Source of the DNA: an uncultured Clostridia bacterium
GTDB lineage: Bacteria; Bacillota; Clostridia; Christensenellales; Borkfalkiaceae
Assembly: GCA_947588985.1 (NCBI GenBank)
Contig: CANQBG010000004.1
Coordinates: 1,667-65,666, forward strand
Length of the DNA: 64,000 bases
Direction: 5' to 3'
The notes beneath the pieces are model-generated. The model saw only the letters and a list, made by a program, of their open reading frames with translations, ran no database searches and had not been told where the DNA came from. Position 1 is the first letter of the stretch. Every line of letters starts with the position of its first letter. Positions 4,708-38,630 of this stretch are shown one piece after another. The position numbers and the translations under genes were made by a program.

Positions 4708-7563
4708 CTACCTTTCCCTTCGTCCTCGTAAATAATGCCATTTTTTATCATAATCGTTATGCAACGGGTAAAATGGCTTACATAGTTTCTTGATCTCAAA
4801 GCGCTTCTCCGCCTTTAGCTTCCCAAAGCCATGTTGGTTCGCTGATTTTTTTTGAGGCGCGGAATCACTCGGCTTAGGTATCGGTTTCTGCATATTTCCC
4901 CTAAGCTTACTTCCTCTTTGCCGCCAGAAACCTGGGCGGGGACTTCCCCATACGACAGGACAATTTCCATTCGCCTCCCGGTTTTTCACATTCCAAGCCT
5001 TCCCCCAGCAACTAGGCTCTTCGGGTGCTTCACAGTAAATCGTCAAACTGTTACAACCCCAGAACGCCTGTGTCCCTATCGAGGTCACGCTATCCGGAAT
5101 GGTAATGGAGGTCAAATCGCTATAACCATAGAACGCATATTCGCCAATCGAGACTACGCTATCGGGAATCATACTATTCCTACAACCTAAAATCAAGGCT
5201 TTCGAACGCTTTTCAATTAAGCAATCGTTTTCACTTCGATAGACGGCATTCCCCTTCGCCACTTCAATATAATCGAGTCCATTGCACTCAAAAAACGCCC
5301 GCTTCCCAATCAAAGTCACGCTTTCCGGAATGACAATGCCCGTAAGCCCGCTGCAGCCCCTGAACGCATCGCCCCCGATCGAAGTGATGCCCTCGGGAAT
5401 AACAATGCCCGCGAGCCCACTGCAACCCCTAAACGCATCCTGCCCAATCGTAGTCACGCCAAGGGGGATCACGCTGGTATTGCAACCCAAAATCAAGGTC
5501 TTAGAACGTCTTTTGATCAAGCAATTGTTTTCACTCCGATAGACGGCATTCCCCTTCGCCACTTCAATATACTCGAGTCCATTGCACCCAAAAAACGCCC
5601 GCTTCCCAATCGAATTCACACTGTCGGGAATGACGACTTGCTTGAGCCAACCGCAATCCAAAAAAGCCTTATCCCCAATTGAAGTCACGCCGAGAGGAAT
5701 TTGAACCTTCGCCGCTTTCCCTATGTACCGTTTTAAGATAGTCCCTTCTATTTGGAATTCTGGCTTATCATCAAGAGTAGGCGTGATCTCTGGTGCGGGT
5801 TGCGGTGCGGGCTTTTGTTGCGGTTTGGGTTCAGGTGCGGACTGCGACACGGGTTGCCGCGTTTCGGAAAAAGTTCTTCCTCCGCACTCCATACAAACTT
5901 TTGCGTGTTTCGGATTCTCCTGCCCGCAAAAAAGACAAAACTTAGTGGACGCAAATTGCTCCTCTAAAATAGCAATCCTTTGCCGTAGCTTTTCTATTTC
6001 TCTTTTCTGTGCCTCATTCTTTTCTCGTTCAAGTTCAAGCGCATCTTTATCGCGATCGCTCTTTCTGTTTGCCCACTCCAATGCATCAACAAGCGTTGTC
6101 CCGGGAGCCGGACATTTTGCACTGTTGCAAAACATTGCGTCAAGCAAATACGATTTCCCGCATATGGGACAATATTTCAACCCGCTCTCTACGTATTCCC
6201 CGGCATTTTTGACCGCATTCGCCACGCCCTGCAAAATCTCTTTTACGGGTTCCGCTCGGTCCCATTCTTCATACTTTCCATCCAGATCGTCTTCTAATTC
6301 AATGACTGTATCCTTGTAAACGACAATGATACGATCAAATGGATTTTTCCCTCTCTTTTCGCAAAATTTACAAAACCGGTTGATTTCATTTTCGACCCAA
6401 GGCGTTTTACGATATTCCTCCTTGCTGCACACAAGGAGCATGATTTTCACCCTTGAAAGCGCATAATGGATGAGGGACTCATATTCGATTGTTCCCTGCT
6501 TCGCACGTTGCTCTTTGCAATCCACATCGGAGAAGAAGGGATTTACACCAAGTTTTTTCAGCCCTTCATATACTTGCTGTTCCTTGATCCACTCGTAATC
6601 ATCGGTATAGGGCCCGTCTTTATACTCCGACACTTTCGTGCAGATGAAGCAATCATAAGAAAGACCCTTGTCACGGTACTCGCAGATATGCTTCCGGCTA
6701 CTTTTAAGTTTTTTAACAAATCCTCTGAATACGCTTTTTTGTTCATCCGAGGCATTGTCAAGCGCTTCACGATAAGAACCGTGATTTTCAAATAAATCCA
6801 TATTGTAATCAAACAATATGAACCGTTCGGCATTGGCTACATCATCCCAAATCAACTGGATCTTCCACTCCGCCAAGGCCATCCCAAAATAGGCGTCTGC
6901 CGACATGCCGCCCGTAGCGGCTTTCGTGGCTTCGTTGAAGCGCTCTTTGGCGAGTTCAAACTCTGCCGCTTGCAGTGCACGATATCCCAACAACAAGTTC
7001 CGTTCGCAATAGTCCTCTTCCCGTTGGTCCCTTTTGGCCTCGCGTTCGATGATCCGCCCTAAATCTCGCTGAACTTCATCCAATCTCCTATCCAAAGCGC
7101 TGTAGTACTGTTCCGCTAAATAGTTTGCCTTTTGCTGCAATGCCTGCATACTTTCCAGCAAACTCTTGTCTTCCGATAGCTTTTCGGTGAGTTGCGCGAT
7201 AAAACTCTTGAATAGCACCGCTTGGCCGCTCTGCAGGTCCTCGAATCTCTTTTGGACGGCTGCCTCGATCCGCTCCTCGCTTTGGGATTGCGCATCTTTT
7301 ATATTGCAAACATACTCGATAAATTTGCTCTCGACAAGTGCGCCGACTTGCTTTGCCACATCTTCGGTGACGGCATGCCTCTGCGCCCTTATTTCTCGCG
7401 TGAGCTGTTCGGTGAGTCGTTCGGTCTGTTTATCGAGATAATCCTCTACGGCCTTTTCGTCGAGACCTGTGGAAATTACAATATCCCTTGCTCTGATTTT
7501 GCCCGTATTGATTAAAGAGTTTTCGCCGGTATTACTTACGCTGCCTGCTTCTTTCCGCGCCAT
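4708..7563 (-). CDS. TIR-domain protein with coiled-coil/TPR-like N-region, two zinc ribbons, Pro-rich linker and BspA-type leucine-rich repeats
   Basis: The TIR-like core spans aa ~302-425 (SYDCFICTKVSEY...TPWVENEINRF, resembling the SxWCxxEL catalytic-Glu motif). Zinc ribbons are CPICGK..CNSAKC and CLFCGQ..CMECG. The Pro-rich linker reads PEPKPQQKPAPQPAP. About 23-aa repeats follow (IPDSVTSIGxxAFxGCSxLTxI) and end in LTIYCEA...PVVWG. GGAG RBS. Confidence 0.8.
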   Translation of the reverse strand: MARKEAGSVSNTGENSLINTGKIRARDIVISTGLDEKAVEDYLDKQTERLTEQLTREIRAQRHAVTEDVAKQVGALVESKFIEYVCNIKDAQSQSEERIEAAVQKRFEDLQSGQAVLFKSFIAQLTEKLSEDKSLLESMQALQQKANYLAEQYYSALDRRLDEVQRDLGRIIEREAKRDQREEDYCERNLLLGYRALQAAEFELAKERFNEATKAATGGMSADAYFGMALAEWKIQLIWDDVANAERFILFDYNMDLFENHGSYREALDNASDEQKSVFRGFVKKLKSSRKHICEYRDKGLSYDCFICTKVSEYKDGPYTDDYEWIKEQQVYEGLKKLGVNPFFSDVDCKEQRAKQGTIEYESLIHYALSRVKIMLLVCSKEEYRKTPWVENEINRFCKFCEKRGKNPFDRIIVVYKDTVIELEDDLDGKYEEWDRAEPVKEILQGVANAVKNAGEYVESGLKYCPICGKSYLLDAMFCNSAKCPAPGTTLVDALEWANRKSDRDKDALELEREKNEAQKREIEKLRQRIAILEEQFASTKFCLFCGQENPKHAKVCMECGGRTFSETRQPVSQSAPEPKPQQKPAPQPAPEITPTLDDKPEFQIEGTILKRYIGKAAKVQIPLGVTSIGDKAFLDCGWLKQVVIPDSVNSIGKRAFFGCNGLEYIEVAKGNAVYRSENNCLIKRRSKTLILGCNTSVIPLGVTTIGQDAFRGCSGLAGIVIPEGITSIGGDAFRGCSGLTGIVIPESVTLIGKRAFFECNGLDYIEVAKGNAVYRSENDCLIEKRSKALILGCRNSMIPDSVVSIGEYAFYGYSDLTSITIPDSVTSIGTQAFWGCNSLTIYCEAPEEPSCWGKAWNVKNREANGNCPVVWGSPRPGFWRQRGSKLRGNMQKPIPKPSDSAPQKKSANQHGFGKLKAEKRFEIKKLCKPFYPLHNDYDKKWHYLRGRRER

Positions 7564-7583
7564 TTTCGCGTCTCCTGATATTT

Positions 7584-8219
7584 TTACTTATCGGTGGTTT
7601 TGAAGAGCTCTTCTATATTTATTGTAATATTTTTTGCTTGAATTTTTCCCGTATTGTTAAAAGATCCCTTGCCGGTATTATTGATATCACCAGAGCCTTC
7701 ATAGTACTTCCTTATAACCTCCGTGTTTCCGGCGCTTATATTTGCTTCGTTGAGTTTATCATCGCAATATTCATAGATAAAGAAAATCAAGCCGAAGGAA
7801 CAATCGCAAACGCCTATAACATTACACCATACCGCCGGAATATACTCAAGTGCACTTAAAATTCCCAAAGCAAGCACCGCCCCCGTTACGACGGCGAGAA
7901 TAACGATTACCCAAACGGCCCTCTTTTTTTTGCTCGCCCGCATTGAACCGAGCGCTTCATCTTTGACTTGTTTCCGCACGTCTTCCAATTGCTTCTTCAG
8001 TTCAGCATGCAGACTCTCCAAATAGGAATCTGCATTTTCTATTCTTGATTCCCGATACAGATAATTATCTATGAGGCCAAACGCCTTTTCGGCCTTTTTT
8101 AACCTATTTTCAGGCAAACAATCGATAAGTTCGCAACTTTCATCAATCAAAAATTTACCTAATTCGTCCACTTTTGGCTTCAACTCGCCAAGTTTTTTCG
8201 TCATTTCTGTTTTTATCAT
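7584..8219 (-). CDS. small membrane protein (helical N-domain, TM hairpin, C-terminal NTGK motif)
   Basis: 211 aa with an AAGGAG RBS. Two hydrophobic helices (AVWVIVILAVVTGAVLALGILSAL, VIGVCDCSFGLIFFIYEY). I recognise no family. Confidence 0.65.
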   Translation of the reverse strand: MIKTEMTKKLGELKPKVDELGKFLIDESCELIDCLPENRLKKAEKAFGLIDNYLYRESRIENADSYLESLHAELKKQLEDVRKQVKDEALGSMRASKKKRAVWVIVILAVVTGAVLALGILSALEYIPAVWCNVIGVCDCSFGLIFFIYEYCDDKLNEANISAGNTEVIRKYYEGSGDINNTGKGSFNNTGKIQAKNITINIEELFKTTDK

Positions 8220-8270
8220 GATGGCTTTCTCCTTTTTTATAAACCACGCGCGTTGGCATAGGATTCATGC

Positions 8271-9782
8271 TCATTCATGCTTCAAATAGTTGATCGCTTT
8301 TTCAGTAAGACTTCTGCCGCGGCCGGTGACGATAATAAATCCAATCCTAATAAGATACGGTTCGTATTCGGAGAGGTACTTCTTGGGGTCCAATCCAATA
8401 CGGGCAGCAAGCGTATCGGCGCCGATCGCACCGCTCATATCCTCTGCGATTGCGTTCAGGATCTCCAAATCCTTCTTTTCAAGGCCGATCTCATTGATGC
8501 CCTTTTCTTCAAAATACCGCTTCACGACGTCGAGATCGATGCTCGTTGAAACGCGCTGGCCCTTATCGTCGTAGAGTGCCGTATCCAACCCGTCCACAAA
8601 AGAATTGACATAGCGAATAGACCCGCGGCTACGGGGAATACAAGCGTCTATTGCTTCGTCGGTAATGGTAAGGCCCTTCGATGCTACTTTGTTCTTATAA
8701 ATGCGTTTCAGCTCATCGGGCGTATAGTCCACCATCTGGAACTTCAATCTGAGGCATCTGTCTTTTATGGTATTGAGGACCTTATCATCGTCGGTGGTTG
8801 CCGCGATAAAGGTGAAGTTGTCGATCGGAATGCGTTTCACCACGCCGTTTATGTCGGGCGGCGAGACATACACGCGACTGTTGAGCAACGTTAAAAGGCT
8901 CGATTGCAGCTCGTCCGTCAACATATGTATTTCGTCAAAGGCGATCACGACGGGTTCGTTCTCCCTTGCGACCTTCATCAAGAAATTCTGCAAGGCCTTC
9001 AGGGATTGCTGGCTGTTGCGATATTGCGAACAGTCCATCCACTCATACCGAACGCCGAGCGCCTTTGCGATAAGTTCCATGAGCGTGGATTTCCCAAGCC
9101 CGGGATTGCCGAAAAGCAGGATGTTATCGAGATACTTCCTTCCCTGCGCTTTGGCAATGGCGATTTCTTTTAACAAAGGTTTGACGATATGCTGCTGACC
9201 GATAAATCCCTCCAATGTATCCGGAGAGAACAACGGCTCATCTTTTCCTCCGCCGTCAACTTCTTCTCCCTCCGAAGCGGGCACAACGGGTGCGACGGGG
9301 GCATCAACTTTCGGCTCGTCGTCCTGCCCCTTTATGATCGGCTCCACGGGGATAAGCGGCTCCGCGGGTTCGGAAATAATGGGCGAAGGCTTGACGTCGG
9401 GCTCTTGCGGTCCTACAATGCCGTCTATATTCACGCCGCCGCTTGGAATCGACGGTCCTTGAGGGGGCAAAGCGCGTCCGCCCCCGCCCAAGATATCCCC
9501 GAAGGAAGGGATATCCGTGTCTGCAATCAGCCCGAAGAACTTTTGGACACGCCTGTCCTGCAGGCCGTTTTTGCGGATGATTTCTATGTAACTTCCGAAA
9601 ACATCCTGCCAATGGGATAGCTTTGCCTTGATAACGATGGGATCGCCGTTGTTGAGCGAATATTGCCCGGCAAACAGCTTGTACAGCTCTAAGAGCCCTT
9701 GCAACGTGGCCTCTTGATCGTTTGCCCGCGCGGCATGCAATGCCGCTCTGTACTTCTCACGAAATAAATCTGCAAATGTCAT
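8271..9782 (-). CDS. RuvB-like AAA+ ATPase with N-terminal MIT-like helical domain and Pro-rich linker
   Basis: FIGQQHIVKPL, Walker A GNPGLGKST, Walker B VVIAFDEIHML, and FTFIAATTDD...IKDRC. The C-terminal winged helix YEPYLIRIGFIIVTGRGRSLTEKAINYL closely matches the RuvB C-terminus (EPYLIQxGFxxRTPRGR). The first ~175 aa are extra relative to RuvB. Confidence 0.8.
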   Translation of the reverse strand: MTFADLFREKYRAALHAARANDQEATLQGLLELYKLFAGQYSLNNGDPIVIKAKLSHWQDVFGSYIEIIRKNGLQDRRVQKFFGLIADTDIPSFGDILGGGGRALPPQGPSIPSGGVNIDGIVGPQEPDVKPSPIISEPAEPLIPVEPIIKGQDDEPKVDAPVAPVVPASEGEEVDGGGKDEPLFSPDTLEGFIGQQHIVKPLLKEIAIAKAQGRKYLDNILLFGNPGLGKSTLMELIAKALGVRYEWMDCSQYRNSQQSLKALQNFLMKVARENEPVVIAFDEIHMLTDELQSSLLTLLNSRVYVSPPDINGVVKRIPIDNFTFIAATTDDDKVLNTIKDRCLRLKFQMVDYTPDELKRIYKNKVASKGLTITDEAIDACIPRSRGSIRYVNSFVDGLDTALYDDKGQRVSTSIDLDVVKRYFEEKGINEIGLEKKDLEILNAIAEDMSGAIGADTLAARIGLDPKKYLSEYEPYLIRIGFIIVTGRGRSLTEKAINYLKHE

Positions 9783-15809: not shown

Positions 15810-15825
15810 AAAATCCGTCTCGGTT

Positions 15826-17004: not shown

Positions 17005-19491
17005 TTATCCGTCAAGCGGTCCATATTTCTTGATGAACTGCTCTTTCGTTATGAGTATACGGCGTCCCTTCGACCTATCGAGCGGAGAGATGTATCCCAT
17101 GCTTTCCATCCAGTCGATGATTTTCCCCGCATGGTTGTATCCAATACAGCATTTCCGCTGCACGAGGGAAATTGACGCCTCACCTTCTTGGATCACGATT
17201 GCCAGAGCCTTAATATAGAGCGGGCTTTCCGGGGACGCATCCGTGTCCTTGTCGGAAGCATTCGAGGCAGTTTTCTTGGTGGCACGCCGGATATATTGCT
17301 TGGCCCCCTCATTAAACTTTGCCTCATGCGTCTTCTTTGTTGCCGCAACGGCTGCGGCCAATGCCTCATACGGAAGATAGGCGCCCTGTATTCGTTCGCA
17401 CAGCGAAGTGAATTCGCTCCACATGAGCAGATCGCCAAACCCAAGCAGTTTTTCTGCTCCGCTTTCATTGATGAGTATACGCGAATCGTTTTCCCGGATC
17501 ACCCGAAACGCAATGCGCGTGGGGAAATTTGATTTCAACGCACCCGTAACGACATCTGGGGTCGGTCGTTGGGTAGCAAGAACGAGGTGGATTCCTGCCG
17601 CACGTGCTTTTTGCGCCAACCGTAGCACGCCCTCCCCAATGGCGCGATTTACTGCGACAAAATCCGCATATTCGTCGATGATGATGACGATGCGCGGAAG
17701 ATTTTCCTCCCCTTCTTTACGCGCCGCATGATAATCTTCGATATTCCTTATCGGATCTCCCGCAGCAATCTTGCCTTGAAAGATTTGATACCGGCGTTCC
17801 ATTTCATGGATTGCCCACGTCAGCATGCGAGCCATGGGCTCCGCGTCTGTGATGATATGCCCCGTGAGAAGGTGCGGCATCTCATCATAGTGCATAAACT
17901 CCGATTGTTTAGAGTCGCACAATATGAGCCGGACATCGTCGGGAGAGTATTTTGTTACCAAGTTGTAGATCATCGTATGGAGGAACGTGGATTTCCCGGA
18001 ACCGATTGTGCCTCCGATCAAAATGTTTTTGAGGCGTACAATGTCTCCGTAAACGGAATTCCCGTCCACATCTTTACCGATGGCGAAGTAGAGCGACTCC
18101 GGCTTGCTCCACCGTTCGTTGGCATCGTGGATCAATTCCTCCGCCGGAACCGTCTCGCGCTCGGACCGAACGCGCGGCACCTCGATGCAGATCCGTCTGC
18201 TGCCCGCGGGATCGGTATAGACCCGCACCCCTTCCCTTTGCCCAAGGCGCATGGCAAGCTCGGTGGCTCTTTTGGTTACGGCGGATGGGGAAACCGCGCT
18301 CGGAATCACAAGTGCAAAGCGCATAACCGTCGCCCCCACGGAAACATTGGCGATCCCGGAATCAATGTGGAATCCCGCCAATGTCCCGGTGATGATGTCT
18401 GCGGTTCTCGTCACTTCATCGGACAAGATCCTCTTGTCGAAAAGTTCGTCATCTACGTCCTCCTCATCGAAGGCCTCTTTTTCTTCCTTTTCGACGCCTA
18501 CGGCTTGCCCGGATTCTCTTGCGAGGAGGGTATCGCGGATTTTTGCATAATCCGCCTCCGTCATCTTGGCAAACTCCTTCACCGCCCTTGCGTAGACGAC
18601 AATGTCGTCAATGTTTTCGCCGTCCTTCACTCTCTGATAGCGTTCCCGCATGCGCAGGATCAGCTGCCCGCGATCCATCTCCGGATCGGCGGTCAACAAT
18701 TCCTTCGCGACGCCTAAAATGCTTTCATTCTCTTTGCCGGTATCCACGCACATGGCGACCTCATCCGCGTCGATCGCAACAATACGCTCTATTGCTGCAA
18801 ATAGTTGTAACATATAGGTTACGGTATTCTCGGGAGAGGGAACTTCGATCCAAAGCTCGTCCTCGACAATGCTGATCTGATAGCGATCCGCAATCGAGTG
18901 GATTCGTTCTGAGATTCCCTCCGCGTCAAGCGGCGTGTGCATCTTGAGAAAGCGAAGCGCGATTGCATCGTCCGAAAGATAGACATCGTCATCCCGGATC
19001 ACAATCTTGAACCGGATCGTCCTTCCGCGGATATTTAGCCCTTCGGGGGCGAGATAATGTTCGCCGTTTATTTGGATAATCGAAACGCCTTCGTCCAACT
19101 CATGGGTGATGGCATAAACTTCCGGCGGAGTATCGTCGCCCGATTCCTTGTCGTCCGATTCGTCGTCATCCGATTCCTCGTCGTCCTCCAAAGTTTCCTT
19201 CTCACATTCCTCACGCATTCTCCGAAGGATCTCCCGCCTGCGCGCCTCTAAAGACGCGCGTCTTGATCTCAGATCATACAACTCGTCGAATCTCCCGGCT
19301 TCCCTTTTTCTGTCTGTCTGTAAGACGAAATATTGAATGCCCGAATCCAAACGGAGCACCCCGTCCTCCACACATTTTTCGATTAGTTTGGAGATGCTAC
19401 GATAATCGGCAGAAAATCTTTTCTGCAATTCCGGGATCGAAACCTTCTGCTGCGCCTTAATATAATTGAGTATTTCTTGATCGTTTGCCAT
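17005..19491 (-). CDS. FtsK/SpoIIIE-family DNA translocase, soluble (no TM region), with wHTH domains at both ends
   Basis: Trimmed to MANDQEIL (AAGGAG RBS). Walker A GGTIGSGKST, Walker B IVIIIDEYADF, and ATQRPTPDVVTG. The C-terminal gamma-like wHTH reads ISLVQRKCCIGYNHAGKIIDWMESMGYI. An N-terminal wHTH is followed by an acidic stretch. I see no hydrophobic helices. Confidence 0.85.
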   Translation of the reverse strand: MANDQEILNYIKAQQKVSIPELQKRFSADYRSISKLIEKCVEDGVLRLDSGIQYFVLQTDRKREAGRFDELYDLRSRRASLEARRREILRRMREECEKETLEDDEESDDDESDDKESGDDTPPEVYAITHELDEGVSIIQINGEHYLAPEGLNIRGRTIRFKIVIRDDDVYLSDDAIALRFLKMHTPLDAEGISERIHSIADRYQISIVEDELWIEVPSPENTVTYMLQLFAAIERIVAIDADEVAMCVDTGKENESILGVAKELLTADPEMDRGQLILRMRERYQRVKDGENIDDIVVYARAVKEFAKMTEADYAKIRDTLLARESGQAVGVEKEEKEAFDEEDVDDELFDKRILSDEVTRTADIITGTLAGFHIDSGIANVSVGATVMRFALVIPSAVSPSAVTKRATELAMRLGQREGVRVYTDPAGSRRICIEVPRVRSERETVPAEELIHDANERWSKPESLYFAIGKDVDGNSVYGDIVRLKNILIGGTIGSGKSTFLHTMIYNLVTKYSPDDVRLILCDSKQSEFMHYDEMPHLLTGHIITDAEPMARMLTWAIHEMERRYQIFQGKIAAGDPIRNIEDYHAARKEGEENLPRIVIIIDEYADFVAVNRAIGEGVLRLAQKARAAGIHLVLATQRPTPDVVTGALKSNFPTRIAFRVIRENDSRILINESGAEKLLGFGDLLMWSEFTSLCERIQGAYLPYEALAAAVAATKKTHEAKFNEGAKQYIRRATKKTASNASDKDTDASPESPLYIKALAIVIQEGEASISLVQRKCCIGYNHAGKIIDWMESMGYISPLDRSKGRRILITKEQFIKKYGPLDG

Positions 19492-19501
19492 ATTTTTCTC
19501 C

Positions 19502-21214
19502 TTAATCGTCAAAGAAACTTCGTCTGCCGCTTTGCATGGAATCTTTCATATCTAACCGGAAGGTGTATTTTGCGTCGAACGGGTTGGCCTTGCCGACATA
19601 CTGTTTCTCGTCAGAAAGCGACATATCCGTGAATTCTTTGCAGAGATAGTACCGCTCCAGCTTGGAGAAAAGCACATACCCGCAATTCGCTTCCGTAACA
19701 ATGCACTCTCCGGGCGAGAAATGCGCAAGCATACTTTTGGGAATCAGCGGGATCGTCTCAAATTGATAGTTATCCATTTCCGGCTCCTTCCCGTTCAAAG
19801 CCGACGCGGGCGCAAGTCGTGTATATTGACCGCACTCCTTCGAGAATTCCTCAAGCGTTTGAGGATTATTTGAGCCGAAAAAGATGTGCATATTGAGGTT
19901 ATCCCGGATAATGGCGGCGACGGCGTCTCCATACACACTGTTGAGCTGCGCATACGACTGCACGATGAGGATGAAGAAGATATTGCGCCCCGCACAGGCG
20001 GAGATCGTCGTTTCGAAGTCTTTCATGGGCGGGAAATTGCCGAACTCATCGAGGATGAAATAGAAGGGAACTTTGCGCTTCCCGTCCGGCTCGCTGTTGG
20101 CATGTTCGATGAGAAGCCGATAGGCGTCCTGAATAAACAGACTGATAACCTTAAAATGGACTTTGAGCTCATCGCGGTAGTCGATAAAGAGCGCAACGGG
20201 CTTTTTCCCCGTGAGAACGCCCATATCGAAGGAGTTGCAACTCGTGACAAGGCGCATCGCGCTCTCGCGGAAGATGGACATCTGCGTACTAAATACGCTC
20301 GTGATACATTGCCGCGTTGTTCGAGCTTCTTCCGGAATGGTCGCTTTTTCGATTTGATAGGCGCGAGAAGTCTTGGGGCGGTTAGTAAAGTATCCCCCGT
20401 CAAAATCATGATCAGACTTGTTCAAAAGCCCCATGAGCGTGATGATCGTCGCGAAGGAGTAGGTCTCTTCCGTGATCTGTGTCCTCCCAGAATCGCCCAA
20501 AAGCTCAGGGCGGCTGTCCTCTAACATCGCCCACAGAAAGGCTTTGAGAAGTTCGCGGCCGCTGTCCTCCCAATACGGATCGTTTGCTTTACTCGTGGGC
20601 GCGATCATAATCGCGAGACTATCGATATCGTTCCCAACTTCCTCCATCATGAGGTTTTCCCATCGTCTGAGTTCTTCATCCAATTCGGCTTGGCTCTCAT
20701 AGATCTTTCCGTGCAGACGGTTACGGGGACCATTTTCCGTATCTACGACCTCGATCTCATTGTAGATATTGAAAATCGAATGATATTTCCGGTAGATGGG
20801 CGTCAGCGGATTCCAACACTCGGAATGCTTGTAGTCGCGGAAGTTGAGAAAGAGGAGCTCATAGCCCTCCGCACGGAGCGTCGAGGCGGTGTGGCGGTAG
20901 ATCTCCCCCTTGGGATCGGAGATGATCATGCTCTTCTTATTCTTCGCCCGTGCAAAAGACAGCACCGTCGGGACGACATAGGATGTCGTCTTGCCGAGCC
21001 GCGTCGCTGCGATGACGCCGACATGATTCTCCTTCTCCGAATAGGTTTGCAGAAGCCGTCCGTTTACATAGCGGCATGCCTTCAAGACGCCCGTCACTTC
21101 ATGTTCGGGAAGTTCGTCATACCAAAAGCTGTTGGAAAACGATTCTCCGAGTTCGTCATAGTGGTAATATTTGGTGTTTTCGTACCCATTCAAAAGTTCA
21201 TTCGTGGTCGTCAT
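19502..21214 (-). CDS. VirD4/TraG-like (type IV coupling protein family) ATPase, soluble
   Basis: Trimmed to MTTTNELL (GGAGGGAG RBS). Overlaps the upstream gene by 17 nt. Walker A AATRLGKTTS and Walker B FYFILDEFGNF, the latter typical of the TraG/VirD4 family. No N-terminal TM helices. Confidence 0.75.
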   Translation of the reverse strand: MTTTNELLNGYENTKYYHYDELGESFSNSFWYDELPEHEVTGVLKACRYVNGRLLQTYSEKENHVGVIAATRLGKTTSYVVPTVLSFARAKNKKSMIISDPKGEIYRHTASTLRAEGYELLFLNFRDYKHSECWNPLTPIYRKYHSIFNIYNEIEVVDTENGPRNRLHGKIYESQAELDEELRRWENLMMEEVGNDIDSLAIMIAPTSKANDPYWEDSGRELLKAFLWAMLEDSRPELLGDSGRTQITEETYSFATIITLMGLLNKSDHDFDGGYFTNRPKTSRAYQIEKATIPEEARTTRQCITSVFSTQMSIFRESAMRLVTSCNSFDMGVLTGKKPVALFIDYRDELKVHFKVISLFIQDAYRLLIEHANSEPDGKRKVPFYFILDEFGNFPPMKDFETTISACAGRNIFFILIVQSYAQLNSVYGDAVAAIIRDNLNMHIFFGSNNPQTLEEFSKECGQYTRLAPASALNGKEPEMDNYQFETIPLIPKSMLAHFSPGECIVTEANCGYVLFSKLERYYLCKEFTDMSLSDEKQYVGKANPFDAKYTFRLDMKDSMQSGRRSFFDD

Positions 21215-22817
21215 GAATACTCCCTCCAAAGCCAAATGCTTTCTTCCGCGCGCCGACGCTGCCGATATAAGGACGCACCAACGATTCTGTAAGAAGAAGC
21301 TTCTCCAGACGATGTTCGCGCACGGCGGCATCGATCGCTCTATCGATCTCATCGATGCTATATCCGGAAAGTTTCTCGGCAAGCCCTTCCTGCATCGCAA
21401 GCTCTTGCACCCCATAGGCGATCCCCTTCTCGCGTACCACACGTTCCGTAAATTGCCGCTTTTCCTCCATGGTCAGCTCCGAAATGCGCACCATATCGCA
21501 ATAGGGCTTTAATTTCTTGGCATTCTCTCTGTCGCAGAAGCAGATCGGAAGCACGGACGAAAGATCAAGCGACACGCTCGGATGATTCAGACGGTATTTC
21601 CCGCGCTTATCGCTCTGTAGGAAGTTCTTCGCCATATCAAACGCCCTTTCGGAGATTTCCCCGCGAAACGTGAGCAGATACAGGTTGAATGCGTCCTCAT
21701 CGCAACCGCGCACGAAGATGTTGTTTTTCGTGGGTTCGAAGTCGTATTCTACAAGGTCGCCTATCTCGACCCGCTCCATATGAGACGCCTCGAAACACCG
21801 CATGAGCAATCCGGCATAGTAGTCGAGCATATATTTACTGTCCGAAACAAAGCAGAGCGGGCGATAGGTAGCCATCGTTCTCAAGTCGATATTTTCGAGC
21901 GCGCAAAGGATCTTTTCGCCCTCTTCGGGATGGTCGGGGCGAACCCCGTCAAGCGCCTTTGCATGGAATTCCGCCGTACCATGTCCGAGTTTGAGGGGCA
22001 ACGAACTCGCTTCGGCAAAGAGTTCCGCATTCGGCGTGAGAAGAAGCGTTTCCTTGTCGCGCTCGCTGAGGATCTCCGAATAGACGAGCCGCGCATAGGA
22101 CTTATTGTAGACGTCCCGCTTGATGATCCCCTGCCGAAACGCCTTTTCAAGAAGTCGATACTCCCCATGCCGCCCCTTTACATACGAGCCATACTTCTCC
22201 CGCACCCGTTCGAACACTTCGGCATGTCCGATGCGGACAAGGCAATCTTGCAGACATTCGAGATACTTTTCCCGATTGTCAGGGTCATAATACAGAGCCG
22301 CAAGCAGACCTTCCTCGCTGTTCCATTCCGCCGCACAGAGAATTTTCTTGCGTCCGCTTCCCTCGTCCTTGTGAAAAACAATGCCCTCCGACTGCAAGAT
22401 ACCAAGCGCGTTGAGCGCAATCACAAGTCCGTTTTCTACGGCAAGCGTCAGATTTTCACAAGCGACGGAGCGCACATCCTTCCCATCGCACGCGAGATGA
22501 AAGTTTTGCGCCAACGTAAACGCTGTCCCCTTCAAATCGATGATCTCTTCGCACTCGGGATCTCTGCCGTGCAAACGGTCATTCATGGAAAGATACTGCT
22601 TTATGCGGAGATGTTGGTTATATTTGAATACGCTCTGAATTTGCACGACTTCTTGCGTTTGCGACAACGCAAAGATGTGTTCCGCCTCCTCCTGCGGCAA
22701 GAGAAAGATATTGGCATAGGCGAAGAAAAGCGGCCGCTTGTCCGCACAGAAACGCCCAACGGTGTTCTCCGCAATATAATAATTTTTCAACATGGTTTCC
22801 GTTAGATGGTCAAACAT
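21198..22817 (-). CDS. hypothetical protein with Sel1-like repeat region and a C-terminal degenerate AAA+-like domain (tentative)
   Basis: 539 aa. LNALGILQSEGIVFHKDEGSGRKKILCAAEWNSEEGLLAALYY resembles Sel1 repeats. The C-terminus (LSGYSIDEIDRAIDAAV) resembles an AAA+ lid, but I find no Walker A GKT. Start overlaps the ClpP stop by 8 nt. Confidence 0.45.
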   Translation of the reverse strand: MFDHLTETMLKNYYIAENTVGRFCADKRPLFFAYANIFLLPQEEAEHIFALSQTQEVVQIQSVFKYNQHLRIKQYLSMNDRLHGRDPECEEIIDLKGTAFTLAQNFHLACDGKDVRSVACENLTLAVENGLVIALNALGILQSEGIVFHKDEGSGRKKILCAAEWNSEEGLLAALYYDPDNREKYLECLQDCLVRIGHAEVFERVREKYGSYVKGRHGEYRLLEKAFRQGIIKRDVYNKSYARLVYSEILSERDKETLLLTPNAELFAEASSLPLKLGHGTAEFHAKALDGVRPDHPEEGEKILCALENIDLRTMATYRPLCFVSDSKYMLDYYAGLLMRCFEASHMERVEIGDLVEYDFEPTKNNIFVRGCDEDAFNLYLLTFRGEISERAFDMAKNFLQSDKRGKYRLNHPSVSLDLSSVLPICFCDRENAKKLKPYCDMVRISELTMEEKRQFTERVVREKGIAYGVQELAMQEGLAEKLSGYSIDEIDRAIDAAVREHRLEKLLLTESLVRPYIGSVGARKKAFGFGGSIHDDHE

Positions 22818-23409
22818 GGTGACTTCCTCCTTTCGCTTTGTTTGCGCCCGGGATCACATGGTCGATGAGGCCGTATTCCTTCGCGGCGGCAGCACTCATG
22901 ATGGTGTCGCGGTCGGTGTCCTTTTGAATCTTCCGGACGGGTTGATTCGTATTCTCGGCCATGATTTTGTTGAGCCTTGCGCGGATACGCTCGATATGAT
23001 TGGCCGCAATGATGATATCCGACGCCTGCCCGCTCGCCCCGCCGAGGGGCTGGTGGATGAGGATCTCACAGTTCTCCGTAGCCCTGCGCATCCCGCGCGT
23101 CCCCGATGAAAGCAGGAACGCCGCCATACTTGCGCACATCCCCAGCCCTACCGTCGCGATCTTTGCGTCGATGTAGTTCATTGTATCATAGATGGCCAGC
23201 CCGTCCGAGACGCTTCCTCCGGGGCTGTCGATCTGAATGGTGATGATGCGCTCCTCCATCGGTACTTCATCCGTGCGGAATTTGTCGTCGAGATATTGGA
23301 GCTGGCTGATAACGCGCTCCGCCGTCTCCGCCGTGATCGGTTCAAAAATATTGATGGTATTCCGCTTCAGACTGTATTGCCATGAAAATTCTTCCTTTTG
23401 GTCTATCAT
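22810..23409 (-). CDS. ClpP-family serine protease (paralogue encoded in the island)
   Basis: Trimmed to MIDQKEEF (AAGGAG RBS). IDSPGGSVSDGLAIYDTM, GMCASMAAFLL (Ser), IHQPLGG (His) and DTDRD (Asp) are closely similar to canonical ClpP. Confidence 0.88.
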   Translation of the reverse strand: MIDQKEEFSWQYSLKRNTINIFEPITAETAERVISQLQYLDDKFRTDEVPMEERIITIQIDSPGGSVSDGLAIYDTMNYIDAKIATVGLGMCASMAAFLLSSGTRGMRRATENCEILIHQPLGGASGQASDIIIAANHIERIRARLNKIMAENTNQPVRKIQKDTDRDTIMSAAAAKEYGLIDHVIPGANKAKGGSHHV

Positions 23410-23504
23410 GTTTTTCTCCTTACGAATTAGTTTCGGTTGAAAATCTACAACTCGGTGCGGCTTGGGATCCATCGTTCCCATATAATCCAATGTTCTTTGA
23501 TATA

Positions 23505-23533
23505 ATTATACACGATTTCGTCAATCGTGTCAT
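23505..23533 (-). promoter_or_regulatory. putative promoter of the ClpP-to-DUF1292 operon
   Basis: On the minus strand: ATGACA, a 17-nt spacer ending in TG, then TATAAT (extended -10), about 95 nt upstream of the ClpP ATG. Confidence 0.45.
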
Positions 23534-23617
23534 AACTGCATCTCGCTGAAATTTACAAGTATTCCATCCGTTTTGAATAGATTGTTGCAAAAAATACAAG
23601 ATTTCCGCTTTATATGG

Positions 23618-23650
23618 CAAAAAAGAATCTTGTATTCGCTACAAGATTCT
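23618..23650 (-). terminator. rho-independent terminator after the HTH gene
   Basis: Perfect 11-bp stem AGAATCTTGTA / TACAAGATTCT with loop GCGAA (minus strand), followed by TTTTTTG. Lies 30 nt downstream of the stop at 23681. Confidence 0.7.
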
Positions 23651-23680
23651 ACAAAACCGATTTTTATTGATTGAGCAATA

Positions 23681-24088
23681 TCAATTATGAACTACTACGA
23701 TATCGTCTAATTTCACATGGGCAATTTGACAATAAAAAAGTAAGTTCTCAATGCTAATGTGTGAACGCGCCTTTTCCCAGTTGTTGATTACATTTGAGGA
23801 CACGCCGAAAACCTCTGCAAGCTCCGGACAACTAATACTGTTGTCCATGTCCCTGAAAGTACAGGTTTCGCAATCTCCGGTTATATTTGTACATTTTATG
23901 GTATCCTTTCGAAGCATGCTACAGACATATCGCCTGAGATATTCATTGTTGCGCCGCAAATTGAATAATTTATTTCCGGTAGCTTCCCAATCTACAAATT
24001 GCCGAACGATCCTCATGTATGCCATTATATCATCATTTGCATGAATGCACAACTGTTTTTGAATAAAATGAAAATCTTTTTTGTGCAC
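23681..24088 (-). CDS. XRE-type helix-turn-helix protein
   Basis: C-terminal HTH ISCPELAEVFGVSSNVINNWEKARSHISIENLLFYCQI. AT-rich like the island. Forms its own transcription unit. Confidence 0.7.
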   Translation of the reverse strand: MHKKDFHFIQKQLCIHANDDIMAYMRIVRQFVDWEATGNKLFNLRRNNEYLRRYVCSMLRKDTIKCTNITGDCETCTFRDMDNSISCPELAEVFGVSSNVINNWEKARSHISIENLLFYCQIAHVKLDDIVVVHN

Positions 24089-38629: not shown

Positions 38630-38630
38630 T

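What the first reader, a model, noticed from the sequence alone, without database searches (positions are those of the whole stretch)
4708..24088. A ~19 kb island combines an ESCRT-III/Vps4-like pair with MIT-tagged enzymes, a TIR-LRR protein, three DNA motors and a ClpP paralogue: a candidate undescribed system
Sixteen co-directional genes sit in two tightly packed operons, with gaps of 0-51 nt and several overlaps.

- **Operon 1:** ClpP paralogue, Sel1-like/degenerate-AAA protein, soluble VirD4-like ATPase, soluble FtsK-like translocase, DUF1292.
- **Operon 2** (behind a consensus TTGACA-17-TATAAT promoter): two paralogous helical proteins, a Snf7-like protein, a Vps4-like AAA+ ATPase, a MIT-like-headed trypsin protease, a polytopic LRR membrane protein, a MIT-like-headed RuvB paralogue, a small membrane protein and a TIR/zinc-ribbon/LRR protein.

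I do not recognise this combination as any named defence system, ICE, prophage or secretion system. There is no integrase, relaxase, VirB4, capsid or portal gene.

In archaea and eukaryotes, MIT domains dock onto the tails of ESCRT-III polymers. Here an unfoldase, a protease and a DNA translocase all seem to carry such a head. That suggests a membrane-bound filament acts as a recruitment platform.

Two speculative readings:
- (a) an abortive-infection or conflict system, with LRR sensors, TIR and protease effectors, and membrane remodelling or repair;
- (b) a DNA-handling or vesicle-budding transfer module, in which FtsK, VirD4 and RuvB motors work with a scission machine.
Basis: partly seen in the sequence, partly recalled or inferred. 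Interest (0 to 1): 0.93.

Follow-up and report, generated by a model that had tools for sequence, protein, structure and literature searches.

The report
Bacterial ESCRT-III-like cassette with MIT-tagged enzymes
A mobile island in a gut Clostridia genome carries a conserved five-gene cassette in which an ESCRT-III-like filament protein sits next to an AAA+ unfoldase, a protease and a RuvB-like motor. The protease and the motor carry the same MIT-fold docking head, a layout so far described only in archaea and eukaryotes.

Summary
The island is real. It has 15 co-directional, tightly packed minus-strand genes at about 4.5-24.2 kb, with GC about 0.47 against about 0.60 in the flanks.

Across 29 non-redundant loci from Clostridia/Christensenellales and Acholeplasmatales/Anaeroplasma MAGs, only five genes are constant:
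- a 200-aa helical protein
- a Snf7-like protein
- a classic AAA+ ATPase
- an HtrA-type protease
- a RuvB paralogue

**Fold evidence**
- The 207-aa protein models as an ESCRT-III fold and has a conserved C-terminal tail.
- The protease and RuvB heads are homologous to each other. The protease head models confidently as a three-helix bundle whose best PDB matches are MIT domains.
- There is no sequence-level MIT signal.
- The AAA head is unverified, and the ATPase is no closer to Vps4 than to CDC48 or FtsH.

**Variable parts**
- The ClpP/VirD4/FtsK operon and the LRR/TIR proteins are variable accessories.
- The small membrane protein and the TIR-LRR protein share a pair-specific terminal motif, laid out like amyloid-signalling abortive-infection pairs.

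**Known systems**
- PADLOC profiles matched only generic AAA, FtsK and protease domains, not a described system. Phage, plasmid, IMG/VR and literature searches found none.

I read it as a candidate membrane-filament recruitment system, most likely used in conflict or defence.

The parts
23681..24088 (-). Xre-type HTH regulator (135 aa) at the island's upstream edge. Accessory.
   Evidence: Pfam HTH_3, E = 6e-5. Homologues lie next to the cassette in L025 and L036. GC is 0.31-0.41.
22810..23490 (-). ClpP paralogue. Accessory, not part of the conserved core.
   Evidence: Pfam CLP_protease, E = 2e-60. NCBIfam ClpP 200 bits, below the cut-off of 249. Closer to cellular ClpP than to phage head proteases. 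Linked to the core only in L008, L015/L030, L018 and L036. A promoter-like ATGACA-17-TATAAT sits at 23533..23505.
21198..22817 (-). 539-aa protein of unknown family that travels with ClpP.
   Evidence: No hit in Pfam, NCBIfam, PADLOC, PHROGs or plasmids. Orthologues follow ClpP in L008, L015 and L018, and one occurs in L021. The Sel1 / degenerate-AAA call is not confirmed.
19502..21214 (-). Soluble VirD4-like coupling-protein ATPase (CD1115 family). The likely start is MTTTNE at 21214. Accessory.
   Evidence: Pfam T4SS-DNA_transf, E = 2.5e-47. NCBIfam conju_CD1115 235 bits against a cut-off of 250. No TM segment. The 569-aa orthologue in L030 overlaps the upstream gene in the same way.
17005..19512 (-). 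Soluble FtsK-like translocase with alpha, motor and gamma domains and an N-terminal wHTH. Accessory.
   Evidence: Pfam FtsK_SpoIIIE 1e-41, FtsK_gamma 1.6e-23, FtsK_alpha 2e-9. No TM segment. Found next to the core only in L015/L030/L031, with a fragment in L028.
16691..16936 (-). DUF1292 protein (81 aa), last gene of the upstream operon.
   Evidence: Pfam DUF1292, E = 3e-6.
16554..16582 (-). Consensus sigma-70-type promoter, TTGACA-17-TATAAT, in front of the core cassette.
   Evidence: A 12/12 match in the 250-nt intergenic gap. The total count of promoter-like sites in the island is not above chance.
15826..16440 (-). Core gene 1: 204-aa all-helical protein ('helA') with an acidic linker and a conserved C-terminal helix (EEVIRAAEAAIPDRK). 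Fold unknown.
   Evidence: Always lies immediately upstream of the Snf7-like gene. A protein of 215-228 aa occupies the same position in the distant loci L034, L036 and L038; its homology to helA was not tested. No Pfam or PDB match. Not similar to the Snf7-like protein or to the heads.
15333..15809 (-). Tandem paralogue of helA ('helB'). The likely start is MAKSIIRSH.
   Evidence: DNA repeats with 616-631 nt spacing and 75-87% identity (families D4, D7, D8, D11). Two copies are also present in L006, L012 and L015.
14658..15281 (-). Core gene 2: ESCRT-III-like (Snf7-like) protein of 207 aa with a conserved C-terminal tail, TGDIDYAGIVAEENGKK.
   Evidence: AF2 model with helices 7-41, 45-100, 111-132, 157-171 and 195-204. 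Nearly all of the top ~35 Foldseek PDB hits are ESCRT-III superfamily proteins. Family profile against PDB gives CHMP2A at E = 0.007, colinear over 9-141. 10 of 60 relatives hit Pfam Snf7, best 3.4e-7. The tail carries 2.29 bits per column against 1.3 in the linkers.
13450..14643 (-). Core gene 3: classic-clade AAA+ ATPase (397 aa) with a conserved ~75-aa helical head of untested fold.
   Evidence: Pfam AAA, E = 4e-36. CDC48 175 bits, FtsH 162, CdvC 144. Walker A is GPPGTGKT and Walker B is IIFLDEID. The pore loop SVVG is nearly invariant (SIVG in three loci) and non-aromatic. The head is conserved in the distant loci L034 and L038 but has no MIT signal.
12427..13449 (-). Core gene 4: MIT-fold head (residues 1-80), a Pro/Lys-rich linker, and an HtrA/DegP-type serine protease domain without PDZ.
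   Evidence: Trypsin_2, E = 1.7e-17. DegP subfamily, E = 1e-22. The catalytic His, Asp and Ser (GDSGGP) are present in the sequence. The head model has pLDDT 89.6 and MIT domains are its top PDB hits.
9809..12406 (-). Variable cassette: polytopic membrane protein with a C-terminal BspA-type LRR_5 array.
   Evidence: LRR_5, E = 1.5e-68. About 6-8 hydrophobic segments. Present in 7 of 29 loci, inserted between the protease and the RuvB paralogue.
8271..9782 (-). Core gene 5: the same MIT-fold head, a Pro-rich linker, and a RuvB paralogue (AAA+ plus winged helix).
   Evidence: RuvB_N 2e-15 and RuvB_C 1e-16. Colinear with RuvB at 154.6 bits against a cut-off of 282. Its head is homologous to the protease head (hhalign 92%, E = 6e-7). 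The head is present on every orthologue, including the distant ones.
7584..8219 (-). Accessory: 2-TM protein (211 aa) ending in a G/N-rich ~26-aa motif.
   Evidence: TM segments at 102-145. The family occurs in 11 of 29 loci. Its C-terminal motif matches the N-terminus of the next protein (score 73, z = 11.5, 0 of 500 shuffles).
4708..7563 (-). Accessory: cytoplasmic protein built of the N-terminal paired motif, a coiled coil / TPR-like region, a TIR-like domain, two zinc ribbons, a Pro-rich linker and an LRR_5 array. The last ~80 codons are probably read-through at the island edge.
   Evidence: LRR_5, E = 9e-41. Zn_Ribbon_1, E = 0.002. TIR_2 at E = 4e-6 to 4.5e-5 in the window protein and two orthologues. 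No TM segment. C-terminal extension relative to L015.

Best explanation
**What it is.** The conserved unit is a five-gene cassette carried on integrative islands of gut and rumen Clostridia and wall-less Firmicutes relatives. Its genes are helA, a Snf7-like ESCRT-III protein, an AAA+ ATPase, a MIT-headed HtrA-type protease and a MIT-headed RuvB paralogue.

**Proposed mechanism**
1. The Snf7-like protein polymerises on the inner face of the membrane.
2. Its exposed, conserved C-terminal tail (and possibly helA's) serves as a docking peptide for the MIT-fold heads. This concentrates and activates a protease and a DNA translocase at the filament.
3. The AAA+ ATPase remodels or recycles the filament.

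**Proposed purpose.** I think this most likely serves biological conflict: anti-phage or anti-mobile-element defence, or abortive infection.
- Interchangeable LRR proteins act as sensors.
- In many loci, a membrane executioner is coupled to its LRR/TIR partner through a shared terminal motif, as in amyloid-signalling pairs.

**What is shown**
- The folds of the Snf7-like protein and of the protease head, the homology of the RuvB head to it, and the conserved tail.
- The intact catalytic motifs.
- The synteny and the variable cassettes.
- The paired motifs.

**What is inferred**
- Polymerisation and membrane binding.
- Head-tail docking.
- The targets of the protease and the motor.
- The defence role.

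The ClpP/539-aa/VirD4/FtsK operon in this window is a neighbouring accessory or element-backbone module, not part of the core.
For: **ESCRT-III fold and signal**
- Foldseek top hits for the model include CHMP2A/3, Loki CHMP4-7, CHMP1B, CdvB2 and Snf7.
- The family profile hits CHMP2A colinearly at E = 0.007.
- 10 of 60 relatives hit Pfam Snf7, best 3.4e-7.

**Tail**
- The C-terminal tail is conserved down to ~20% identity.

**MIT-fold head**
- Model pLDDT 89.6.
- Top PDB hits are the MIT domains of VPS4A/B, MITD1, katanin p60, spartin, NRBF2 and calpain-7. Target-normalised TM is 0.65-0.78 and rmsd 1.3-2.5 A.
- The same head sits on the protease and on the RuvB paralogue in every locus, and on no other protein with comparable confidence; the one other hit is a weak one (E = 0.0012) to a 566-aa protein in L021.

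**Synteny**
- AAA in 29 of 29 non-redundant loci and protease in 28 of 29. The RuvB paralogue was found in 22; in several of the others the contig ends soon after the protease (L010, L020, L028), but this was not checked for all of them.

**Conflict context**
- A tyrosine integrase lies immediately upstream in 7 loci.
- TIR_2, SIR2_2 and Band_7 are neighbours in L032.
- PDC-S04, SoFic and mad3 hits occur among the neighbours.
- LRR cassettes are shuffled between loci.
- A TIR-like domain is present.
- Six of nine pairs of membrane protein and downstream protein share class-specific terminal motifs (z = 6-14). This is the layout of BASS pairs and of the Bab/Agp Abi system (bioRxiv 10.1101/2020.01.06.895854; 10.1101/2024.11.07.622273).
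Against: - There is no sequence-level MIT signal for any head.
- Foldseek E-values are weak (0.015 for the ESCRT-III model, about 0.2 for the head), as expected for small helical folds. Three-helix bundles and helical hairpins can converge.
- The ESCRT-III model has only pLDDT 67.
- The AAA head is unmodelled, and the ATPase is not specifically Vps4-like. Its pore loop lacks the aromatic residue.
- The tail does not obviously match published MIM consensus motifs (my reading; not tested).
- Known defence genes are sparse among the immediate neighbours: a handful of 87 families.
- Several loci sit next to housekeeping genes with no visible integrase.
- LRR_5 / Flg_new proteins are usually surface adhesins, which would also fit a non-defence surface or vesicle role.
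- No experiment bears on any step.
Confidence: 0.45

Rival explanations
1. **Element-propagation module.** The mobile island uses the ESCRT-III-like filament and the AAA+ ATPase to bud membrane vesicles or form intercellular bridges. The filament-recruited RuvB-like motor, helped by FtsK and VirD4 where they are present, loads or pumps the element's DNA. This would resemble ESCRT-dependent vesicle DNA transfer in Sulfolobus or budding of plasmaviruses from wall-less hosts.
For: - The cassette sits on integrative islands next to an integrase.
- A DNA translocase is an invariant core member and carries the docking head.
- In this window and in L015/L030, soluble FtsK- and VirD4-like pumps lie directly upstream.
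- Hosts include wall-less Acholeplasmatales and Anaeroplasma.
- Surface-type LRR_5 / Flg_new proteins are frequent partners.
Against: - FtsK and VirD4 accompany the core in only a few of 29 loci.
- There is no relaxase, VirB4, capsid, portal or terminase. The core has no PHROG hits.
- No homologue turned up in 2.9 million IMG/VR contigs, 50,697 phage records or 72,556 plasmids.
- The constant protease and the TIR and paired-motif modules have no obvious role in transfer.
- Most hosts are Clostridia, which I assume to be walled (from general knowledge; not checked for these MAGs).
Confidence: 0.15
2. **Envelope-stress or membrane-repair and quality-control module.** This would be a PspA-like function. 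The filament patches damaged membrane, while the AAA+ ATPase and the HtrA-type protease (plus ClpP or HSP70 where present) remove damaged membrane-associated proteins. The island carries it as a fitness or addiction trait rather than as immunity. Alternatively, it protects the cell from the island's own membrane executioner, as ESCRT-III limits MLKL and gasdermin damage in animals.
For: - Membership of the ESCRT-III/PspA superfamily.
- HtrA/DegP-type protease.
- Recurrent ClpP and HSP70 neighbours.
- Co-occurrence with 2-TM proteins that carry signalling motifs.
Against: - A RuvB-type DNA motor with the same docking head is an invariant member, and this reading does not explain it.
- The distribution is rare, patchy and island-borne: 24 of 185,579 species genomes and 92 clusters at 50% identity. 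That is unlike a housekeeping stress system.
- There are no PspB/C, LiaI/F or Toastrack partners.
Confidence: 0.15
3. **The ESCRT/MIT resemblance is convergent or spurious.** The cassette is a real conserved operon, perhaps an AAA+/protease/AAA+ conflict system. But the 207-aa protein would be a generic coiled-coil adaptor and the heads ordinary three-helix bundles. No filament-docking logic would apply.
For: - All sequence signals are sub-threshold: Snf7 19 bits against a gathering score of 27.3, no MIT hits, and Foldseek E >= 0.015.
- The ESCRT-III model has pLDDT 67.
- The ATPase is not Vps4-specific.
Against: - Two independent helical proteins each retrieve specifically the two partner folds of one known interaction network, from 350,542 PDB chains.
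- Some relatives reach Snf7 at E = 3e-7.
- The profile alignment to CHMP2A is colinear over 130 residues.
- One head is shared by two unrelated enzymes, and the filament-like protein has a conserved terminal peptide. That is what a docking system predicts.
- The viral-library control gave only heterogeneous matches with mostly poor rmsd.
Confidence: 0.2
4. **A diverged member of a named defence system**, for example IetAS (AAA ATPase plus serine protease).
For: PADLOC IetA models hit the ATPase at E = 1e-34. NCBIfam IteA gives 112.7 bits. A protease gene follows the ATPase.
Against: - The IteA score is far below the cut-off of 510. The hit covers only the generic AAA module, and CDC48, FtsH and PAN score higher.
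- The protease is S1/HtrA-type, not the subtilase IetS.
- IetAS has no Snf7-like, helA or RuvB component (my knowledge of the two-gene IetAS system).
Confidence: 0.05

Closest known systems
Archaeal/eukaryotic ESCRT-III - Vps4 (CdvB/CdvC) module with MIT-MIM recruitment of enzymes (Vps4, spastin/katanin, calpain-7, MITD1, AMSH)
   Same: - A Snf7-type helical-hairpin protein is encoded next to a single-cassette classic AAA+ ATPase.
- A three-helix MIT-fold head is fused to catalytically unrelated enzymes, including a protease (compare calpain-7).
- The filament-like protein has a conserved C-terminal peptide after a variable linker, where MIMs sit.
   Different: - The host is bacterial and the cassette is island-borne.
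- The ATPase is not a Vps4/CdvC orthologue, has a non-aromatic pore loop and has a head of unverified fold.
- The heads have no sequence similarity to MIT.
- The tagged enzymes are an HtrA-type protease and a RuvB paralogue, neither of which I know as a MIT-tagged enzyme in eukaryotes.
- An extra invariant 200-aa helical protein is present.
- There are no ESCRT-I/II or CdvA components.
Bacterial PspA/Vipp1/LiaH (ESCRT-III superfamily) stress systems
   Same: Same superfamily fold. PspA and Vipp1 appear lower in the Foldseek list. The site of action is presumably membrane-proximal.
   Different: - The window protein and its relatives hit Pfam Snf7, not PspA_IM30.
- There are no PspBC/F or LiaIF partners.
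- A 2025 review states that a Vps4-like ATPase appears absent from bacterial ESCRT-III systems (PMC7619361). Ravi et al. 2024 report Vps4-like transfers to bacteria only where snf7 has been displaced (PMC11237479).
Amyloid-signalling pairs: fungal HET-S/NWD2, bacterial Bell/BASS-NLR pairs, E. coli Bab/Agp Abi system
   Same: Adjacent genes share one short motif. A small membrane-targeting protein carries it at its C-terminus and the larger receptor-like protein downstream carries it at its N-terminus. The motif classes co-vary pair by pair. Papers: 10.1101/2020.01.06.895854; 10.1101/2024.11.07.622273.
   Different: - This applies only to the accessory pair (7584-8219 and 4708-7563), not to the core.
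- The receptor has TIR plus LRR_5 and no NOD module.
- The effector has no detected Bell domain.
- Amyloid formation is untested.
- The hosts are unicellular gut anaerobes rather than filamentous bacteria.
IetAS (AAA ATPase + serine protease anti-plasmid/phage system)
   Same: An AAA ATPase gene is immediately followed by a serine protease gene. The PADLOC IetA profile hits the ATPase.
   Different: The score is far below the family cut-off. The protease belongs to a different clan. Three further invariant genes are present.
Tn1549/CTn4-type conjugative elements of Clostridia (VirD4-like CD1115 family coupling protein, FtsK-like ATPases)
   Same: The upstream operon encodes a CD1115-family VirD4-like ATPase (235 bits against a cut-off of 250) and an FtsK-like ATPase.
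   Different: Both lack TM anchors. The island has no relaxase, VirB4, VirB6 or integrase. The operon is not conserved with the core.

Membership tests
ESCRT-III superfamily (Snf7/CHMP/CdvB) | Helical hairpin (alpha1-alpha2/3) followed by shorter helices alpha4 and alpha5 | tested here: met
   The AF2 model has helices 7-41, 45-100, 111-132 and 157-171. Nearly all of the top ~35 Foldseek PDB matches are ESCRT-III proteins, although E >= 0.015 and query-normalised TM (TMq) is 0.35-0.42.
ESCRT-III superfamily (Snf7/CHMP/CdvB) | Sequence-profile match to Snf7 (PF03357) at the curated threshold | tested here: inconclusive
   The window protein scores 19.2 bits against a gathering score of 27.3. 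10 of 60 diverse relatives match, best E = 3.4e-7. The family profile hits CHMP2A at E = 0.007, colinear.
ESCRT-III superfamily (Snf7/CHMP/CdvB) | Polymerises into membrane-bound filaments | not testable with these tools
   Needs purified protein with liposomes and EM.
ESCRT-III superfamily (Snf7/CHMP/CdvB) | C-terminal MIT-interacting motif after a flexible linker | tested here: inconclusive
   The tail at 190-207 is among the most conserved segments (2.29 bits against 1.3 in the linkers) across 60 sequences. Match to MIM consensus motifs and binding were not tested.
Vps4/CdvC AAA+ ATPases | Single classic AAA cassette with intact Walker A, Walker B and second region of homology | tested here: met
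   Pfam AAA 4e-36 and AAA_lid_3. GPPGTGKT, IIFLDEID and ATN...RGGRF are read directly from the sequence.
Vps4/CdvC AAA+ ATPases | Specific sequence affinity to Vps4/CdvC over other classic AAA clades | tested here: not met
   CDC48 175 bits > FtsH 162 > CdvC 144 (cut-off 650). The C-terminal half matches p97 D2 best, then katanin.
Vps4/CdvC AAA+ ATPases | N-terminal MIT domain | tested here: inconclusive
   A conserved ~75-aa head exists. It shows no MIT signal in Pfam or PDB and only E = 0.0024 / probability 12% against the MIT-fold heads.
Vps4/CdvC AAA+ ATPases | Aromatic pore-loop-1 residue that grips the substrate | tested here: not met
   The pore loop is SVVG (SIVG in three loci) in all 26 aligned sequences (the window and 25 loci).
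Vps4/CdvC AAA+ ATPases | Encoded next to an ESCRT-III gene | tested here: met
   Directly downstream of the Snf7-like gene in every locus.
MIT domain | Asymmetric three-helix bundle of about 70-80 residues | tested here: met
   The protease head model has pLDDT 89.6 and helices 3-19, 23-43 and 47-69. Top PDB hits are MIT domains from seven protein families, with target-normalised TM 0.65-0.78 and rmsd 1.3-2.5 A. The RuvB head is homologous to it.
MIT domain | Sequence match to MIT profiles or solved MIT domains | tested here: not met
   No Pfam MIT hit at E <= 10. No MIT chain appears in the PDB profile searches.
MIT domain | Binds ESCRT-III C-terminal tails | not testable with these tools
   Needs a multimer prediction or a binding assay.
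RuvB (Holliday-junction motor) | Equivalog-level match and RuvA-dependent context | tested here: not met
   Colinear with RuvB over its full length, but 154.6 bits against a cut-off of 282. It carries an extra N-terminal head, no ruvA or ruvC is adjacent, and it is island-borne.
IetAS defence system | IetA-family ATPase plus IetS subtilase | tested here: not met
   IteA scores 112.7 bits against a cut-off of 510. The protease is Trypsin_2 / HtrA-like.
Conjugative element (T4SS/ICE) | Relaxase, VirB4 ATPase and a membrane-anchored coupling protein | tested here: not met
   Only a TM-less VirD4-like protein is present. Pfam and NCBIfam find no relaxase or VirB4 in the island.
Prophage | Capsid, portal, terminase; similarity to known phage genomes | tested here: not met
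   None by Pfam or PHROGs. The Snf7-like protein has no match in IMG/VR or INPHARED.
TIR domain | Profile match to TIR / TIR_2 | tested here: inconclusive
   TIR_2 scores 24.6, 24.4 and 27.8 bits (gathering score 28) in the window protein and two orthologues. PADLOC gives no hit. The catalytic Glu was not examined.
Amyloid-signalling (BASS-type) gene pair | Adjacent genes share a short motif at the effector's C-terminus and the receptor's N-terminus | tested here: met
   Six of nine pairs score 54-85 against 16-28 for cross-class pairs. z = 6-14 and 0 of 500 shuffles reach the observed score.
Amyloid-signalling (BASS-type) gene pair | The receptor is an NLR (NB-ARC/NACHT) and the effector carries a Bell domain | tested here: not met
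   The receptor has TIR-like, zinc-ribbon and LRR_5 domains only. The effector shows only a weak DUF2207_C hit.
Amyloid-signalling (BASS-type) gene pair | The motif forms amyloid and templates the partner | not testable with these tools
   Needs ThT, EM or ssNMR, or a prion assay.

The most novel reading that the evidence does not exclude
This would be the first bacterial ESCRT-III / AAA+ / MIT-MIM recruitment network. A Snf7-type filament would use its C-terminal tails to assemble a protease and a DNA motor at the membrane, as an immune or cell-death platform. In many loci it would be wired to LRR/TIR sensors through amyloid-like templating. That would be a prokaryotic counterpart, or an independent invention, of the eukaryotic link between amyloid-triggered membrane executioners and ESCRT-III.
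Probability: 0.35. Interest if true: 0.92.

Novelty: new variant of a known kind. Interest (0 to 1): 0.8.

Why it matters
Current reviews hold that bacteria have ESCRT-III relatives (PspA/Vipp1) but lack the Vps4-type ATPase partner (PMC7619361; PMC11237479).

If this reading is right:
- MIT-tail docking would be shown to work in bacteria. It would be used modularly to bring unrelated enzymes (an unfoldase, a protease, a DNA translocase) to a membrane polymer.
- A small, genetically compact model of ESCRT-III recruitment would become available.
- A new class of candidate defence system would be added for gut Firmicutes, which are poorly covered by current defence catalogues.
- Amyloid-type signalling pairs would be extended to LRR/TIR receptors that lack a NOD module.
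- The origin of the MIT-ESCRT-III partnership would be open to question: horizontal transfer, deep ancestry or convergence.

Tried and rejected
**Sequence routes to MIT**
- BLASTP between the heads found nothing. Only profile-profile comparison showed that the protease and RuvB heads are homologous.

**Searches that returned little**
- A head-profile search of the 5.8-billion-protein collection returned only nine fragments. It gave no picture of other head-tagged enzymes, but the fragments supplied an allowed alignment for modelling.
I used protein look-ups of distant relatives instead.
- helA has no Pfam, PHROG or PDB relative and is not similar to the Snf7-like protein or the heads.
- The 539-aa protein has no relative in Pfam, NCBIfam, PADLOC, PHROGs or plasmids.

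**Readings rejected**
- Prophage, plasmid or ICE identity of the core.
- IetAS membership.

**Other dead ends**
- No flanking direct repeats that could mark att sites were found, and the window has no tRNA gene.
- The viral structure library gave only non-specific helical matches for the head.
- The GC dip at 38-40 kb is just the start region of a large surface protein gene.

Full report
**1. Observation**

The window holds a low-GC block. GC is 0.44-0.52 inside and 0.58-0.62 in the flanks, with transitions near 4450-4700 and 24150-24200. The block carries 15 minus-strand genes from 24088 down to 4708.

- There are overlaps at ClpP/539-aa and 539-aa/VirD4. The VirD4 start is best placed at 21214, as in the orthologue of L030.
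- A 250-nt gap follows DUF1292. It holds a perfect TTGACA-17-TATAAT on the minus strand at 16582..16554.
- The remaining gaps, down to the last gene, are 0-51 nt.

Pfam and NCBIfam confirm these calls:
- ClpP
- a CD1115-family VirD4-like ATPase
- an FtsK with alpha, motor and gamma domains
- DUF1292
- a classic AAA ATPase
- an HtrA-type protease
- a polytopic LRR_5 protein
- a RuvB paralogue
- a zinc-ribbon/LRR_5 protein

VirD4 and FtsK have no hydrophobic segment.

Three calls did not hold as stated:
- The 539-aa protein shows no Sel1 or AAA signal.
- TIR is sub-threshold (24-28 bits against a gathering score of 28) but reproducible in three orthologues.
- I count 15 genes, not 16.

**2. The conserved unit**

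Homologues of the 207-aa protein form a small family. There are 255 clusters at 90% identity and 92 representatives at 50% identity among 1.84 billion proteins. It occurs in 24 of 185,579 species genomes. All are gut or rumen MAGs of Clostridia/Christensenellales ('Coproplasma') and Acholeplasmatales/Anaeroplasma.

tblastn of all 15 window proteins against the fetched loci, clustering of all ORFs, and look-ups of relatives only 20-27% identical give one picture. The constant set is:
- helA
- the Snf7-like protein
- the AAA ATPase (29 of 29 non-redundant loci)
- the protease (28 of 29)
- the RuvB paralogue, found in 22 of the 29; in several of the others the contig ends soon after the protease (not checked for all)

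The variable parts are:
- LRR_5 proteins inserted between the protease and the RuvB paralogue, or placed after it
- a 2-TM protein family (11 loci)
- an integrase immediately upstream (7 loci)
- HSP70 with two large unknown proteins (3-4 loci)
- ClpP with the 539-aa protein (about 4-5 loci, upstream or downstream)
- VirD4 plus FtsK (only this window and L015/L030/L031)

So the 19-kb island is a composite. It holds a five-gene core, sensor/effector cassettes, and a neighbouring accessory operon.

**3. Is the 207-aa protein ESCRT-III-like?**

- The AF2 model has mean pLDDT 67, with 80-89 over the hairpin. It has the expected helix order.
- Of 350,542 PDB chains, the best ~35 Foldseek matches are almost all ESCRT-III superfamily members: CHMP2A/3, Loki CHMP4-7, CHMP1B/IST1, Asgard ESCRT-IIIB, CdvB/CdvB2, Snf7, then PspA/Vipp1. 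The E-values are weak.
- Independently, a 60-sequence family profile finds CHMP2A at E = 0.007, colinear over residues 9-141.
- 10 of 60 relatives hit Pfam Snf7, best E = 3.4e-7.
- The last ~17 residues (TGDIDYAGIVAEENKKK; IDxxxLIxEENKK in distant relatives) are conserved behind a variable linker. They carry 2.29 bits per column against 1.3 in the linkers. This is where ESCRT-III proteins carry MIT-interacting motifs.

**4. Are the heads MIT-like?**

- The protease and RuvB heads are homologous (hhalign probability 92%, E = 6e-7 over 88 columns).
- This head occurs on both enzymes in every locus, including the distant ones. The only other hit is a weak one (E = 0.0012) to a 566-aa protein in L021.
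- The protease head models at pLDDT 89.6 and pTM 0.76 as three helices.
- Its best PDB matches are MIT domains of VPS4A/B, MITD1, katanin p60, spartin, NRBF2 and calpain-7. Target-normalised TM is 0.65-0.78 and rmsd 1.3-2.5 A.
- A search of viral models gave only heterogeneous matches, most with poor rmsd.
- There is no sequence-level MIT signal.

The ATPase has a different conserved head:
- It is only marginally similar to the others (E = 0.0024, probability 12%).
- It shows no MIT signal.
- I could not model it.

The ATPase itself is a classic AAA. It scores CDC48 175 > FtsH 162 > CdvC 144 bits, and its C-terminal half matches p97 D2 best, then katanin. Its pore loop is SVVG or SIVG in every locus, with no aromatic residue. 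'Vps4-like' therefore describes position and architecture, not family membership.

**5. Accessory modules and context**

- The 951-aa protein is built of a coiled coil, a TPR-like region, a TIR-like domain, two zinc ribbons and LRR_5 repeats. It has no TM segment.
- Unexpectedly, the last ~26 residues of the 2-TM protein (GSGDINNTGKGSFNNTGKIQAKNITIN) recur at the N-terminus of the 951-aa protein (AGSVSNTGENSLINTGKIRARDIVIS).
- The same relation holds in five other loci, with three distinct motif classes that match only within a class. Cognate scores are 54-85 and cross-class scores 16-28. z = 6-14, and 0 of 500 shuffles reach the observed score.
- This is the layout that defines amyloid-signalling pairs: Bell/BASS-NLR pairs (10.1101/2020.01.06.895854) and the Bab/Agp abortive-infection system (10.1101/2024.11.07.622273). 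Here, however, the receptor is an LRR/TIR protein without a NOD module.
- Neighbours elsewhere include TIR_2, SIR2_2 and Band_7 proteins, helicases beside an integrase, and a few PADLOC families (PDC-S04, SoFic, mad3). Most neighbours are unknown or housekeeping.

**6. Known systems**

- PADLOC profiles hit only generic AAA, FtsK and protease modules.
- IteA scores 112.7 bits against a cut-off of 510.
- The core has no PHROG hits.
- The Snf7-like protein has no match in IMG/VR, INPHARED phages or PLSDB plasmids.
- Six literature searches found no description of the cassette.
- A 2025 review states that a Vps4-like ATPase appears absent from bacterial ESCRT-III systems.
- Ravi et al. 2024 mention Vps4-like transfers to bacteria only where snf7 has been displaced.

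**7. Interpretation**

The best-supported reading is a filament-based recruitment system:
- A Snf7-type polymer's tails dock MIT-fold heads. This brings an HtrA-type protease and a RuvB-type motor to the membrane.
- An adjacent AAA+ ATPase acts as remodeller.

I favour a role in conflict or abortive infection, for four reasons:
- The cassette is island-borne and sits next to an integrase.
- The LRR cassettes are interchangeable.
- A TIR-like domain is present.
- The paired signalling motifs are present.

Rival readings are:
- vesicle or DNA transfer by the element
- membrane repair or quality control
- a merely convergent resemblance

Every mechanistic step beyond fold and synteny is inference. 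The docking, the polymerisation and the phenotype need the experiments listed under next steps.

Noticed in passing
window 7584-7700 (C-terminus of the 211-aa 2-TM protein) and 7470-7563 (N-terminus of the 951-aa protein); also L006, L015, L018, L022, L026: The membrane protein's last ~26 residues and the first ~30 residues of the protein encoded downstream share a G/N-rich motif. The motif co-varies pair by pair in three classes (z = 6-14). This is the layout of amyloid-signalling (BASS, Bab/Agp) pairs, but the receptor here is an LRR/TIR protein instead of an NLR.
   Followed up: partly
window 4708-4960: The 951-aa ORF runs about 80 codons past the point where its orthologues stop (after '...PVIWGYK'). 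The extension lies in the GC transition zone, so it looks like read-through across the island junction or a truncated element end. The island contains no integrase and no flanking direct repeat.
   Followed up: partly
window 24246-24962 (minus strand; tandem DNA repeats at 24393-24526): Just outside the island lies an ORF for a Cys/Gly/Asn-rich protein with repeated GCGCGNNGNT units (likely start MSNSCNSCNGQ...). Its identity is unknown; a coat-like or RiPP-like protein is a guess.
   Followed up: no
window 5040-5700 and 9855-10720: The two LRR_5 genes share 69-nt-period DNA repeats at 62-88% identity, within and between genes. This could be a substrate for the cassette shuffling seen between loci.
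   Followed up: no
window 13450-14643 (AAA residues ~185-192) and all orthologues: Pore loop 1 of the AAA ATPase is SVVG or SIVG in every locus, with no aromatic residue. This is unusual for a substrate-threading classic AAA protein.
   Followed up: partly
window 15333-16440: helA is tandemly duplicated (helA/helB, DNA identity 75-87%), as in L006, L012 and L015. Both copies keep the conserved C-terminal helix AAEAAIPDRK, which could be a second docking tail.
   Followed up: partly
L001 15085-20445, L014, L027, L038 17056-20630: An HSP70-family protein preceded by two large proteins with no family match (about 550 and 640 aa) recurs downstream of the cassette in several loci. This may be another accessory module.
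   Followed up: no
window 14646-15317 (+), 17728-18717 (+), 21780-22805 (+): Long antisense ORFs overlap the real minus-strand genes. One of them displaced the Snf7-like gene in my naive ORF caller. They look like artefacts of strand-asymmetric composition.
   Followed up: no
window 38000-42800: The GC dip at 38-40 kb is an intergenic stretch plus the start region of a 1307-aa putative surface lipoprotein gene on the minus strand. It is unrelated to the island.
   Followed up: partly
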